Part shown: positions 44,301 to 64,000 of the stretch, piece after piece | Position numbering within the stretch: the stretch's first letter is position 1 | Layout: each line of letters opens with the position of its first letter | Source: Carcharhinus longimanus | Taxonomy: Eukaryota | Length of the DNA stretch: 64,000 bases | Assembly (NCBI GenBank): GCA_030264375.1 | Contig: JASCQW010000128.1 | Span: 18,529,404 to 18,593,403, forward strand | Direction: 5' to 3' | Position numbers: made by a program

Positions 44301-47300
44301 ACTTTTCCAAGTTTTCACTAGTTTCACTATTATTGACACTGAAGTTTCCCACAACCAGGGTAAGACTAACTGACTTAAAAACCTTCTGGTTTGTCTGTTT
44401 CCTATTTCTCATTGGAGGTACAGAACCTCCCATTCCCCACTTCCCTTGTCCTTTACTATTTCCATTATCAATTGAGTTAGATTGGCAGTAAAGCCCTGAA
44501 CTTTAATCTTCAAAGTGAGATGTTTTATTTGCTTTTATCAAAATCTGAAGGTGCAATATTTATCTAATCGGCATAGTAATGCACTTGGGTTACTCCATGG
44601 GAGTAGCATGACTAGATCTGCTTATTATATGTAGGAAGTCATGGGGTACATTATAACGGAGTTCCATTTTCTTTTCAACTCTTGAAGTTGCAAGGTCTTT
44701 GCTGAGAAGCTATTTCAAAAAGGTTTTTAATTTTATTTGTGGCCATCACTGGCTAGACCAGCATTTATTGTTTACTTCCAATTGCCCTTGAGCCACTTTC
44801 TTGCACCATTGCAATTTGTGTTGTAGGTCTACCCACTGTGCTATTGGGAAGGGAATTCAGGATTTTGACCCAGTGACAGTGAGGAAATGGCAGTATAGAT
44901 CCAAGTGTGGCTTGGAGGGGAACTTGCAAATGTTCCCATGCATCTGCTGCTCTTGTTCTTCAAGGTAGTAGAGGTTGTGGGTTTTGAAGGTGCTGTCATT
45001 GCTGCAGTGCATCTTGTAGATGGTACACACTCTACCACAGGTGGCCACTGTACACCTATGGTGTGGGGAGTGAATATTTAAAGTTGCAGATGGAGTTATT
45101 TGGAATTATTTGCAGCTATTTTTAACAAATTTATGGCATGAGTGGCAGGCTATTCAACCAAATGGGGCAGTACATTTTCTATACGTCACTAGATGGTAAT
45201 TAGGAGTAGGACCTTCGCTGATGTCTTCATTACTGTGTTTGTTCAGTTGGCACAAAGATATGATGGCACCTGCAGATCGGTGAACAACCTAGGGATTTTC
45301 CTGCTTGTGTTGGGCAAACTATCATTCTGAGACTCCTCAACTTTTTCTGAAGGCTTTGCAATGGAAACACTTGTGGTGGTATGTGACTACCCATCTTGTT
45401 TCTCTATAGGAGTTTGTGAAGATGATTACTTGGACTCCCCTGCCCCTAATCCTCAAGACAGCTACAACAGCCATATTTTATAAATATGAGACATTGGAAG
45501 GGAGACCTAAATCCTGTGCTTTAACATTAGGATGGAATTTTGTATACCAGTTTTACACTAAGCACTTGGAGATCCAGTCAACTTTCAACAGAGTTGAAGT
45601 GACTTCAGCTCAAAAGTCTTCAATACTTCAAGTGCTGCTTCTCTTGGAAGTTCTCAGTTTCTTTTATGCTGGGTTGTGAGGGAGAACAGATGATCTGAAA
45701 TGGCTTCTCTTTGTAAATTACGGCAGAAGGAAGAGCTCTTGTGCTGGCTGCAGGTGGTATTTGAATGCACTGATGAGGTGTTACTGTATTTGATAACACC
45801 TTCCGTTCTTTATCGGGGATCCTCTGATCTGAGAAGCAATAGCTACAAGTTTCAGATGGCTCAGATGATGGATCAGAGGATATACTTTGATTCTGATCAT
45901 CTCCTTCAATACTCAGTTGCAGCAGTCCATCTGTTAGGAAAAAGACACTATTATTGCAAAAATAGCATGCAACATCTGCACGATTGTCTCGTGGATTTAC
46001 CGGGTGGCAGGAAGGTCATTTCACGCTTTCCGTTTACATCTGGGTTATAGCACTTGTTAAGTATTAACAGATTAAAGTTATTAGGTTTGACATCCAAAGG
46101 TTCTAATTCATTATAACTGCCTGTCATTTGATGATTTCTCCAAATCACACCTACTTTCTTTTTCCACCCCAGAGATTTTGCTGACTTTAAATTCCCACTC
46201 AAGCTTTTAACTATGTTGGTTGCAATCATCCTTTAAACTGCTGCTCTCAAACCTTGAGCACTGAGTGTTGACATCCCTATCTCTTTCACTCCTGACTACA
46301 AGTGATAAGCTAGCTGTACTTTGCTTGATTTTACAACAACTAGCCTGGTTGAATTGAACTATCCAACCCAACAATTGAGTTTACCCAATGGAGTCTAATT
46401 TTGTAGTGAATCTTTTGCAACCTGCACTTGGAGCTGTGGTTGGACACCTGGTCAGGTGAGGCTCCTGCTTGACTGGTGGATTTGGGCAATGGGATGCTGT
46501 TGCCCTGTCATAACAATTTGCCTCATTTGCTCCCTTGCCTCGTTCCTCCTTATCTGACATGGTCTTTAGAAGTTGATACCATAACACATTAAAAATATGG
46601 CAGTTTTAACGTAACTAATCAAATTATTATTATCTAGTAATCACCCATTTGCTCCAACCCTACTTTCCTCCATTCTCAGATGATCTTCCAATTTGACCTT
46701 AACATATCTAGCCTTCATCGGAATTAGTGCAAAGATCCTATCCAGTCTCTTCAAATGAGCACTCCTCTCCATTCTTGTATTCAGGCATGCACCTTACCAA
46801 GACGTGCCCAGTTAAATGTACTGCATATCAGCAAAACACAAACATTCTTGCTTTTTTCCCCTACTGTTGTTCTAACTTTTGAACCTTTGCTTTGCTACTG
46901 GTCATTAAAGTGTTTTGTTTTAACAAATAAGATGTGATCTTTTAACAGATGCCAGGGCCTTGCATGTAAATAACATTTTAAATAAAGTAATTCTTAAGAT
47001 GTGGTCATCACTAGCGCTTATTCCTCAGCTCCATGCTGCTCTGATTTGGCAATGGTGTGCCACATCTTGAACCACTGCAGCCCATAAAGTGAAGATGGTC
47101 CCACAAGGCTTTTGAAGATTCCAGGATTTCACCTAACATTGGCGCAATTGTGTCCAAATTTACTAGGTGTGTTAACTGGAAGGAAACTTGGGTGACTGTT
47201 ACCATGAGCCTGCTGACCTTGTGTCTGAGGCGCTGGTGGTCATGGATTTGGAGGTTGGTGTTGAAGACATGTCAGTGGTGGAGTAAGCAGATGTTTAAGA

Positions 47301-62300: not shown

Positions 62301-64000
62301 ATCCCATGGAGTGAATTGTTATCCTGTTTCTGTTCGTTTCAACAGAATAAAAATCAGATGGATATAACAACGGATAGGTAACCGGTCCCTCTAGATTAGA
62401 ACTCAGTTATGTGCAGGTAATACTCAATAACTTTTACAGTTATCAAATTAGGCTTGGAGGATTGGGCTTTCTTCACTCGAGCAGCATAGAGGCAACATCA
62501 GTGAGGTTTTTAAAATGAAGGAGGGAAGCTATATTGTTTAGCCAGGTTATTTGAATTAGATAGGGAAGAGAAAACTAGATGTACATTAGTATAAAATACA
62601 ACAAAAAAAAAGCTGATTCCAGTGAAGGCTAGTATTTCATTTCAGAGAATCATTGACCTCTGGAATAGATTACTAGACTTGTGACAGTTATAGATTCACT
62701 CCATGTCTGTAACACATAGTTCAGCAAGTTACATAGAATGGAAGATGTAATGAGTTGTAATCAGTCTCCTGGAGCATGTTTGGTTGGGTTAGAGCAGGAC
62801 ATCCCAGAGGCTTTTCCTAAGTTGGTCTGAAGCTTTTTTCTCTCACTTTTTGCTTCTCCCAGGAGCATATGTGATTTGGTTTGGATTGATGCATGCAGGC
62901 TGAATTAACTTGTTTCATTTTCTACTGTCTTTTTTTGGTAACTTTGTTCTTTCCATCAGCAAGACTAACCATTGTGAATGATTCTTGTTGTTACTGGATC
63001 AGTATGGGAATAAACATGGTCAAAGATTTGATCTATAACTTGCTGACATTGACTTTCTGTGATACTGAGGCATGGAATGTTTTTAATGGTCTATAACTTC
63101 CAACAAATTGCTGCTTACAGACTTCAAAAGAAGGTAGTGAAATGATACGAACCACAGTAGGATTTGCACGCACTATGCCTGTTATGCCCACAATTCATGC
63201 ATTTGGCGCATCGTCGCAGGAGGCTATCCCAGAATTCTTCATCAGAACAGCTGCTCATTTTCTACCAACCAAAGTTGCAGTGGGATCTTTAAGGTAACTT
63301 AAAGGAATGGTTTCTGATAATAAAAGTGGATATCCTTATTAAAAAGAAAAAGTTATGTTGACAGAGAACCCTTCATGTCCTCAGAACATCCTAAATAGCT
63401 GCACAGCAAATTAATTGCTAAGTTTGTTCTGTAGGAAAATTCAGCAGCCATGAACAGGAATGAGATGGATAGCCAATTAATCTATTTCTTGATGGCATTC
63501 AACAAACTGATTTATTTTTAAGAAATTGTAGTATATAGCTAAAGGAAATGCAATGGATTTTCAGAAATTTTCTGATAAGGTGTCACTAAAAAGACTTGGT
63601 TACAAAAATTATGGCATGCAGTATAAAAAGATACATATTTATTATTGGAAAATGGATGTGGGGCCAAAAATGGTAACTCTAAACAACTGTTTATCAATTG
63701 GTAAGATGATGGTAATGTGGCTCCTTGCCTAAATCCCTGCAGCATCTCTTTATATAAATCCTTTGAAAGATACTGAAATGTATCGATGTTTGAAGGCATT
63801 ACAAATAATGAAAAAAATGCAGAGATTGCAGTACGACAAAGTGGGTTAAGAGTGGGAAGATTTGCGGTAGGCACAGGAAATGGGTAATAGCACGTTGTGA
63901 ATTAAAAGACAATTGCTTAGTTTAAGAAGGATTTTATTAAACATTTGAGTATGTTGAAGAATGCATGGCAAGGCAGGAAAATGGGGTTTGAATAGAAAAC

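What the first reader, a model, noticed from the sequence alone, without database searches (positions are those of the whole stretch)
45620..63258. Complete TACI (TNFRSF13B) gene on the minus strand, largely missed by the ORF track
Seen: four exons with phase-1 GT-AG junctions join to 750 nt, giving 249 aa with CRD1, CRD2, a short stalk, a Cys-rich TM segment and a tail containing ETCSYCF. There is no signal peptide, as expected for a type III receptor. Known: TACI binds BAFF and APRIL and drives T-independent antibody responses; two CRDs distinguish it from BCMA and BAFF-R. Inference: a two-CRD TACI exists in the oldest lineage with immunoglobulin-based immunity, and it is easily missed by annotation because the exons are short and divergent.
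[Added by the scan's program, not by the reader: the finding's places include an assembly gap (unread letters, written N; its length is only estimated) at 50494 to 50593, 53000 to 53099, 56154 to 56253. Whether the letters on both sides are continuous or in frame is not known: test that first.]
Basis: partly seen in the sequence, partly recalled or inferred. Interest (0 to 1): 0.68.

Follow-up and report, generated by a model that had tools for sequence, protein, structure and literature searches.

The report
Shark TACI (TNFRSF13B) gene, already annotated

Summary
Four minus-strand exons (63258-63153, 61198-61082, 57574-57359, 45930-45620; 750 nt) have GT..AG introns, all in phase 1. All four N runs inside the locus are intronic.

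Translated exon by exon, the pieces map end to end on the 249-aa NCBI protein 'tumor necrosis factor receptor superfamily member 13B [Mustelus asterias]'. They cover residues 1-35, 37-74, 76-146 and 148-249, with 235 of 246 residues identical. The three uncovered residues are exactly the split codons E, E and D.

Exon 2 matches Pfam TACI-CRD2 at 56.6 bits against a cut-off of 22.9. A profile of chondrichthyan TACIs found 32 proteins at E<=1. Of these, 29 are named TNFRSF13B, TR13B or TACI and none is named BCMA or BAFF-R; tetrapod TACIs match over 80-96% of their length.

The cytoplasmic motifs ETCxxCF and IICSPSQ are conserved from sharks to tetrapods. USP22 lies tail to tail about 5.7 kb away, and duck shows the same gene order (PMC13255704).

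So this is TACI, correctly read but already known. I did not obtain a tree against BCMA and BAFF-R, transcript evidence for this species, or proof of continuity across the gaps. I never built or searched the joined 249-aa model.

The parts
63153..63258 (-). TACI exon 1: ATG at 63258, 106 nt, ends in phase 1. It encodes M-S-S followed by CRD1.
   Evidence: An in-frame TAG lies two codons upstream of the ATG. The donor is GTTCGT. The piece maps to residues 1-35 of M. asterias TACI, 32/35 identical.
63154..63249 (-). CRD1: six Cys and an FWDSLL (DxL) hairpin motif.
   Evidence: Pfam hits are weak and below cut-off: BCMA-Tall_bind 19.3 bits (cut-off 27) and TACI-CRD2 13.7 bits (cut-off 22.9). It sits in the chondrichthyan CRD1 clade, support 96/91.
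61082..61198 (-). TACI exon 2: 117 nt, phase 1 at both ends, encodes CRD2.
   Evidence: It is 38/38 identical to M. asterias residues 37-74.
61086..61187 (-). CRD2: six Cys, a YWDKLL (DxL) motif and CGQPPQQC.
   Evidence: Pfam TACI-CRD2 56.6 bits against cut-off 22.9, E = 2.6e-15. The best solved structure is human TACI CRD2, chain 1xu1_R, E = 1.5e-8, with all six Cys aligned.
57359..57574 (-). TACI exon 3: 216 nt, phase 1 at both ends. It encodes the stalk, the transmembrane segment and the membrane-proximal tail.
   Evidence: It is 64/71 identical to M. asterias residues 76-146.
57426..57503 (-). Transmembrane segment: 26 uncharged residues with 4 Cys, followed by KRR.
   Evidence: Kyte-Doolittle maximum 3.24 over 19 residues. 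The exon 1 maximum is -0.45, so there is no N-terminal signal peptide, which gives a type III, N-out topology.
45620..45930 (-). TACI exon 4: 311 nt including the TGA stop at 45622-45620; encodes the cytoplasmic tail.
   Evidence: It is 101/102 identical to M. asterias residues 148-249.
45833..45859 (-). PSETCSYCF motif in the cytoplasmic tail.
   Evidence: E, the first C and the second C are invariant in 17 of 17 rows running from sharks to tetrapods and Arapaima. Its role as a TRAF-binding site is recalled from mammalian TACI and was not tested.
45674..45700 (-). FQIICSPSQ motif in the cytoplasmic tail.
   Evidence: I-I-C-S-P and Q are invariant in 17 of 17 rows.
50494..50593 (.). Assembly gap in intron 3.
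   Evidence: The left flank is an N-terminal part of a LINE ORF2. The right flank maps to residues 177-215 of the LINE 3' ORF, + strand.
53000..53099 (.). Assembly gap in intron 3.
   Evidence: The same 12 nt stand on both sides of the gap.
56154..56253 (.). Assembly gap in intron 3, next to a tandem repeat inside a LINE copy.
   Evidence: The flanks map to residues 33-109 (left) and 163-200 (right) of the LINE 3' ORF, on the same strand and in the same order. RVT_1 scores 48.9 bits at 54986-55375.
60217..60221 (.). 5-N run in intron 2.
4608..39940 (+). Neighbouring gene USP22 (5' end off the window or not detected), convergent with TACI.
   Evidence: The exon at 23820-23990 is 100% identical to chondrichthyan USP22. 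Residues 128-539 of S. canicula USP22 map in order to 4608..38379. The last exon ends at about 39940.

Best explanation
The locus is the single-copy shark orthologue of TNFRSF13B (TACI). TACI is a type III membrane receptor of the BAFF/APRIL system.

Shown here:
- An intact four-exon coding sequence.
- Two BCMA/TACI-type cysteine-rich domains, each with the DxL hairpin motif.
- One transmembrane segment and no signal peptide.
- A cytoplasmic tail with two motifs, ETCxxCF and IICSPSQ, conserved from sharks to tetrapods.

Inferred from mammalian TACI (recalled, not tested here): trimeric BAFF, APRIL and perhaps BALM bind the DxL hairpin, chiefly that of CRD2. Marin 2020 (PMC7674686) reports all three ligands in sharks, citing Redmond 2017. 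Ligand-driven clustering would then recruit TRAFs and other adaptors to the tail motifs and activate NF-kB in B-lineage cells.

All introns are phase 1, so each internal exon can be skipped in frame. A catshark database entry that lacks the TM exon shows that a soluble form is at least annotated in a relative.
For: - Exon model.
- End-to-end collinearity of the four separately translated exons with the 249-aa M. asterias TNFRSF13B, 235/246 identical, with the three uncovered residues equal to the split codons.
- Window-wide tblastn: only the four exons are significant.
- Exon 2: Pfam TACI-CRD2 56.6 bits against cut-off 22.9. The best match among solved structures is human TACI CRD2, E = 1.5e-8.
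- Exon 4 search: 15 of 15 hits are chondrichthyan and 13 are named TNFRSF13B.
- Profile of 14 chondrichthyan TACIs: 32 proteins at E<=1 among 3220 candidates. Of these, 28 are named TNFRSF13B or TR13B, 1 is named 'TACI cysteine-rich domain-containing protein' and 3 have uninformative names. 31 of 32 carry PF09305. Tetrapod rows score E = 3e-37 to 4e-22 at 80-96% coverage.
- Conservation: 22 of 22 columns invariant from sharks to tetrapods, and 47 of 48 columns invariant among chondrichthyans, are kept in the window's pieces. The 48th is the split codon D.
- Topology: TM run of 26 residues followed by KRR, and a hydrophilic N-terminus.
- Synteny: USP22 lies tail to tail, with about 5.7 kb between the two stop codons.
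These are Callorhinchus, Heterodontus, Chiloscyllium plagiosum, Mobula, Scyliorhinus canicula, Narcine, Hemitrygon, Ambystoma and Varanus.
- Duck: the candidate-gene list around one SNP reads Usp22, Tnfrsf13b..., Pld6, Flcn, Cops3 (PMC13255704, passages read).
Against: - There is no transcript evidence for this species.
- Exon 1's CRD is below both Pfam cut-offs and scores higher with the BCMA model (19.3 bits) than with TACI-CRD2 (13.7 bits). Its best solved-structure match is human BCMA, E = 2e-3. However, named tetrapod TACIs also carry PF09257 or PF09256 on their first CRD.
- In the 35-column CRD tree, all 17 CRD1 rows form one side of a branch only at support 41/0.
- No tree against BCMA or BAFF-R was possible.
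- The exon 1 donor (GTTCGT) is weak.
- The order and orientation of the four contigs that carry exons 1-3 and exon 4 rest on scaffolding that I cannot verify.
- The same-contig evidence uses contig length as a proxy and shows linkage, not adjacency. The Cetorhinus rows do not match (109044836 against 137458834).
Confidence: 0.93

Rival explanations
1. It is not the TACI orthologue but another member of the BAFF-receptor group (BCMA, BAFF-R) or a chondrichthyan-specific TACI-like paralogue that carries NCBI's automatic name.
For: Exon 1's CRD scores better with the BCMA model and with human BCMA chains. NCBI names are automatic. No tree with outgroups was run.
Against: BCMA has one CRD and BAFF-R has a partial CRD of four Cys (Granja 2017, PMC5360319, passage). 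This gene has two six-Cys CRDs. Similarity to tetrapod TACI runs over 80-96% of the length, including the tail motifs. Linkage with USP22 is conserved. The window holds only one copy.
Confidence: 0.03
2. The model is a scaffolding chimaera or an unexpressed gene. Exon 4, which is separated from exons 1-3 by three gaps, would belong to another copy, or a coding exon would be hidden in a gap.
For: Three gaps of unknown true length lie in intron 3. Three of the 14 rows in alignment A1 (Mobula, Hemitrygon, Rhinoraja) have 7-8 extra residues at this junction.
Against: Gap flanks are collinear parts of the same LINE copies, on the same strand. None of the 9 shark rows has extra residues at this junction. 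The M. asterias protein joins exon 3 directly to exon 4. The frame is intact and all invariant columns are kept. Exon 4 lies next to USP22, as linkage in other species predicts.
Confidence: 0.04

Closest known systems
TNFRSF13B [Mustelus asterias], 249 aa
   Same: It has the same length and the same four blocks. 235 of 246 compared residues are identical, and exon 2 is identical at 38/38.
   Different: There are 11 substitutions: 3 in exon 1, 7 in exon 3 and 1 in exon 4. The window therefore comes from a close relative, not from that record.
Tetrapod TACI (named NCBI/UniRef rows from Ambystoma, Gavia, Gavialis, snakes, Varanus, Pogona); human TACI CRD2 structure 1xu1
   Same: Both have two CRDs, with 6 residues between the first Cys and the D of DxL in CRD1 and 8 in CRD2. 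Both have the CGQ..QC signature in CRD2, a type III layout, and the SSKD, ETCxxCF and IICSPSQ tail motifs. Identity to human CRD2 is 17 of 35 aligned residues.
   Different: Overall identity is about 26-35%. Tetrapods end IICSPSQEK..., while elasmobranchs read IICSPSQPS and add about 15 further residues. The window and M. asterias have P where the other 15 rows of alignment A2 have H in CGQHP.
BCMA (TNFRSF17)
   Same: It has the same CRD type with a DxL motif and is also type III. Exon 1's CRD aligns with human BCMA at E = 2e-3.
   Different: BCMA has a single CRD (PMC5360319, PMC6001812). No hit named BCMA appeared.
BAFF-R (TNFRSF13C)
   Same: It is a type III receptor for BAFF with a DxL-type hairpin (recalled).
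   Different: It has a partial CRD with four Cys (PMC5360319). Here both CRDs have six.
'TNFRSF13B isoform 2 [Scyliorhinus canicula]', 176 aa (nr; P0020)
   Same: It maps to exons 1, 2 and 4 of the window.
   Different: It lacks the whole TM exon and reads ...EICY-D-GLLQ... in frame. It would be a soluble form. Whether the window's species makes it is unknown.

Membership tests
TACI (TNFRSF13B) | CRD2 matches the curated TACI-CRD2 model | tested here: met
   Exon 2: PF09305 56.6 bits against cut-off 22.9. The best solved structure is human TACI CRD2, E = 1.5e-8.
TACI (TNFRSF13B) | Two six-Cys CRDs, each with a DxL motif | tested here: met
   Exon 1 has FWDSLL and 6 Cys. Exon 2 has YWDKLL and 6 Cys. 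CRD1 itself is below the Pfam cut-offs.
TACI (TNFRSF13B) | Type III topology: no signal peptide, one TM segment, N-terminus outside | tested here: met
   Hydropathy maximum is -0.45 in exon 1. Exon 3 has a 26-residue uncharged run followed by KRR. This comes from hydropathy and the positive-inside rule, not from a dedicated predictor.
TACI (TNFRSF13B) | TACI-specific cytoplasmic motifs conserved with tetrapod TACI | tested here: met
   The conserved residues of ETCxxCF and IICSPSQ are invariant in 17 of 17 rows, and the window keeps 22 of 22 invariant columns.
TACI (TNFRSF13B) | Groups with TACI, not with BCMA or BAFF-R, in a tree | not tested
   No named BCMA or BAFF-R sequence could be obtained. 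None was listed. None of 10 lower-ranked representative hits reached the BCMA or BAFF-R Pfam cut-offs.
TACI (TNFRSF13B) | Conserved genomic neighbourhood | tested here: met
   USP22 is adjacent, tail to tail. Duck has the order Usp22, Tnfrsf13b. In the other species this shows linkage, not adjacency.
TACI (TNFRSF13B) | Binds BAFF and APRIL; expressed on B-lineage cells | not testable with these tools
BCMA (TNFRSF17) | Single CRD | tested here: not met
   Two CRDs are present.
BAFF-R (TNFRSF13C) | Single partial CRD with four Cys | tested here: not met
   There are two CRDs with six Cys each.

The most novel reading that the evidence does not exclude
The all-phase-1 exon layout is an ancient splicing toolkit. 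Skipping the TM exon would give a soluble decoy TACI, as in the catshark 'isoform 2' entry. An alternative first exon that drops CRD1 would give a short, CRD2-only receptor, as in the Heterodontus X2 model and, from recall, the human short isoform. If both forms are truly expressed in sharks, regulated production of decoy and short TACI would date back to the jawed-vertebrate ancestor.
Probability: 0.3. Interest if true: 0.35.

Novelty: already known. Interest (0 to 1): 0.12.

Why it matters
It confirms that the BAFF/APRIL receptor TACI was in place in cartilaginous fishes with its two-CRD ectodomain, its tail motifs and its USP22 neighbourhood. Public annotation already shows this for more than a dozen species, so this window adds one more orthologue and a clean exon map. 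Functional work on shark TACI seems to be lacking in the open literature that I could search. The sequence could therefore serve as a reagent for binding studies with shark BAFF, APRIL and BALM.

Tried and rejected
- Outgroups for a tree. The exhaustive profile search (alignment A2) gave 181 proteins at E<=1e-3, 119 at <=1e-10 and 49 at <=1e-30, with 150 listed, but the library carries no names.
- A Pfam scan of 10 lower-ranked hits found none at the BCMA-Tall_bind or BaffR-Tall_bind cut-offs. Two were at the TACI-CRD2 cut-off (P0287 at 42.2 bits, P0294 at 24.2 bits).
The tree against BCMA and BAFF-R was therefore dropped.
- A regex scan of the listed hits for CRD and tail motifs could not label families and is not used as evidence.
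- CRD1/CRD2 tree. It places exon 1 among the chondrichthyan CRD1 rows (96/91). It leaves CRD1 orthology between sharks and tetrapods unresolved (41/0).
- Possible extra exon in intron 2. Positions 60596-60652 resemble an insert in the Heptranchias model at 12 of 19 residues, E = 0.019. No AG acceptor gives phase 1 in that frame, and the nearest AG leads to a stop. I rejected it as an exon of this gene.
- Solved-structure search with the second USP22 exon found nothing.
- Papers. Five searches found no paper on a cartilaginous-fish TACI in the held library. Subscription journals are not covered, and supplementary files were not consulted.
- Structure prediction, complex prediction and the protein atlas were not used. 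The family is known, and no shark ligand sequence was in hand.
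Full report
1. THE OBSERVATION

- Exon 1, 63258-63153 (106 nt), starts at an ATG with an in-frame TAG two codons upstream. It ends before GTTCGT.
- Exon 2, 61198-61082 (117 nt), follows ...tttgtcgcAG and ends before GTAAGA.
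- Exon 3, 57574-57359 (216 nt), follows ...cctttcttAG and ends before GTCAGT.
- Exon 4, 45930-45620 (311 nt), follows ...ttcctaacAG and ends in TGA.

All three introns are in phase 1. The split codons read GAG, GAG and GAT.

I never built, searched or folded the joined 249-residue model. Every full-length comparison below uses annotated database proteins instead.

2. THE GAPS (tested first)

The window has 10 runs of N. The three flagged runs lie in intron 3, and a fourth run of 5 N at 60217-60221 lies in intron 2. No exon, splice site or reading frame touches a gap.

I cannot prove that the contigs are correctly ordered. The evidence for it is as follows.
- The third gap is flanked on the left by an RVT_1-positive LINE ORF on the + strand (48.9 bits).
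- Its two flanks map to residues 33-109 and 163-200 of another copy's 3' ORF, in the same order and on the same strand.
- The right flank of the first gap maps to residues 177-215 of that ORF. Its left flank is an upstream part of a LINE ORF2 on the same strand.
- The second gap has the same 12 nt on both sides.
- None of the 9 shark rows of alignment A1 has extra residues between the exon 3 and exon 4 blocks. Three batoid rows have 7-8 extra residues there.

3. IS IT MORE THAN CHANCE, AND WHAT IS IT?

- A search with exon 4 alone among longer proteins gave 15 hits. All are chondrichthyan and 13 are named 'tumor necrosis factor receptor superfamily member 13B'. The best is the 249-aa Mustelus asterias protein at 99% identity.
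- The four pieces align without gaps to residues 1-35, 37-74, 76-146 and 148-249 of that protein, with 32/35, 38/38, 64/71 and 101/102 identical. The three uncovered residues (E, E, D) are what the split codons encode. An independent annotation therefore uses the same three junctions.
- A tblastn of that protein against the whole window finds the four exons (E = 2e-64 to 6e-18) and nothing else below E = 0.27. There is one copy here.
- The 11 differences show that the window comes from a close relative of M. asterias, not from that record. Nothing suggests human sequence.

4. FAMILY

- Exon 2 matches Pfam TACI-CRD2 at 56.6 bits against a cut-off of 22.9. It matches human TACI CRD2 (1xu1) at E = 1.5e-8, with all six Cys aligned.
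- Exon 1's CRD is weaker and, taken alone, looks slightly more like BCMA. It scores 19.3 bits with BCMA-Tall_bind and 13.7 bits with TACI-CRD2, both below cut-off, and matches human BCMA at E = 2e-3. This is usual for TACI: several named tetrapod TACIs carry PF09257 or PF09256 for their first CRD beside PF09305.
- A profile of 14 chondrichthyan TACIs found 32 proteins at E<=1 among 3220 candidates. Of these, 28 are named TNFRSF13B or TR13B, one is named 'TACI cysteine-rich domain-containing protein' and three have uninformative names. None is named BCMA or BAFF-R, and 31 of 32 carry PF09305. Tetrapod rows match at E = 3e-37 to 4e-22 over 80-96% of the query, and Arapaima at 4e-17.
- The 17-row alignment from sharks to tetrapods has 22 invariant columns. 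These are the CRD2 cysteines and DxL, and in the tail E-x-C-x-x-C (the invariant residues of ETCxxCF) and I-I-C-S-P-x-Q. The window keeps 22 of 22. It also keeps 47 of the 48 columns invariant among chondrichthyans, and the 48th is the split codon D.
- Hydropathy shows no N-terminal signal sequence. It shows one 26-residue uncharged run with four Cys, followed by KRR. That is the type III layout which the review PMC6001812 ascribes to TACI, BCMA and BAFF-R (passage read).

5. CRD HISTORY

In a tree of 35 CRD rows, the window's exon 1 CRD sits in the chondrichthyan CRD1 clade (96/91). The exon 2 CRD is identical to the M. asterias CRD2. All 17 CRD1 rows form one side of a branch in the best tree, but only at support 41/0. 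That is neither shown nor rejected.

The spacing is more telling. There are six residues between the first Cys and the D of DxL in every CRD1 printed, and eight in every CRD2, in sharks and tetrapods alike. This fits a CRD duplication that predates their split.

6. SURROUNDINGS

- The + strand carries USP22. The exon at 23820-23990 is 100% identical to chondrichthyan USP22.
- Residues 128-539 of the S. canicula protein map in order to 4608..38379. The last exon ends near 39940.
- USP22 and TACI therefore converge, with about 5.7 kb between their stop codons.
The Cetorhinus rows do not.
- A duck GWAS lists Usp22, Tnfrsf13b, two LOCs, Pld6, Flcn, Cops3, Nt5m, Med9, Rasd1 and Pemt around one SNP (PMC13255704, passages read).
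- I recall that Usp22 and Tnfrsf13b are also neighbours in mouse. That was not checked.

7. HOW IT MOST LIKELY WORKS

The domain layout above is shown. The following is inferred from mammalian TACI, partly from recall and partly from PMC6001812 and PMC5360319 (passages read):
- Trimeric BAFF and APRIL bind the DxL hairpin, mainly that of CRD2.
- The tail motifs then recruit TRAFs and other adaptors.

Marin 2020 states that EDA, APRIL, BAFF and BALM are all present in sharks, citing Redmond 2017 (PMC7674686, passage read). The 2018 review still listed APRIL as missing there.

The distal motif reads PSQPS in elasmobranchs and PSQEK in tetrapods. From recall, only the tetrapod form fits the PxQE TRAF2 consensus. 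The shark tail may therefore couple differently; this is untested.

8. WHAT IS KNOWN, AND THE VERDICT

The gene is annotated in NCBI for sharks, rays and Callorhinchus, and nr holds a catshark 'isoform 2'. Five literature searches found no paper on a cartilaginous-fish TACI in the held library.

The finding is correct and ordinary: a known gene that only a prokaryote-style ORF list misses.

Left open:
- transcript support in this species;
- true continuity across the gaps;
- ligand binding.

Noticed in passing
window 4608-39940 (+): USP22, the SAGA deubiquitinase, lies convergent with TACI. Ten coding blocks map to residues 128-539 of catshark USP22 and the last exon ends at about 39940. The best solved-structure relatives are yeast Ubp8 chains.
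   Followed up: yes
window 48087-48734, 50311-50760, 54986-56423 (+); also 14278-15023 (-) and 20652-21842 (+): LINE-type retroelement fragments are present. RVT_1 scores 48.9 bits at 54986-55375. Weak RVT_1 and Exo_endo_phos hits lie at 20652-21842. These fragments fill much of TACI intron 3 and part of the USP22 introns, and most of the assembly gaps abut them.
   Followed up: partly
P0020 (nr, Scyliorhinus canicula 'TNFRSF13B isoform 2'); window exons 1, 2 and 4: This catshark entry lacks the whole TM exon and stays in frame. Every internal exon of the window's gene is phase 1 to phase 1, so the same skip would be in frame here and would give a soluble receptor.
   Followed up: partly
window 60596-60652 (-), intron 2: This stretch is 12 of 19 residues identical to an extra segment in the Heptranchias perlo TACI model (E = 0.019). 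No in-phase acceptor exists in the window. It is probably a modelling artefact in that record or a conserved non-coding stretch.
   Followed up: partly
P0016, P0017 (Mobula, Hemitrygon), alignment A1 columns about 60-80: CRD1 of these two rays lacks the last two cysteines, while CRD2 is intact. This suggests that CRD1 is dispensable in some batoids.
   Followed up: no
window 61113-61115 region (CRD2, CGQPPQQC): The window and M. asterias have Pro where the other 15 rows of the 17-row alignment, from sharks to tetrapods, have His (CGQHP). The effect on ligand binding is unknown.
   Followed up: no
window 45623-45667 (-), C-terminus: Elasmobranch TACIs carry about 15 residues after IICSPSQPS that are absent from Callorhinchus and from tetrapods.
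   Followed up: no
window 55820-56153: A tandem repeat with a unit of about 33-34 nt runs up to the third gap. It is seen as a periodic ORF translation and in the gap flank. This likely explains why assembly broke there.
   Followed up: no
window 60041-60331: The 5-N run at 60217-60221 sits between two near-identical direct repeats. The same peptide strings appear on both sides.
   Followed up: no
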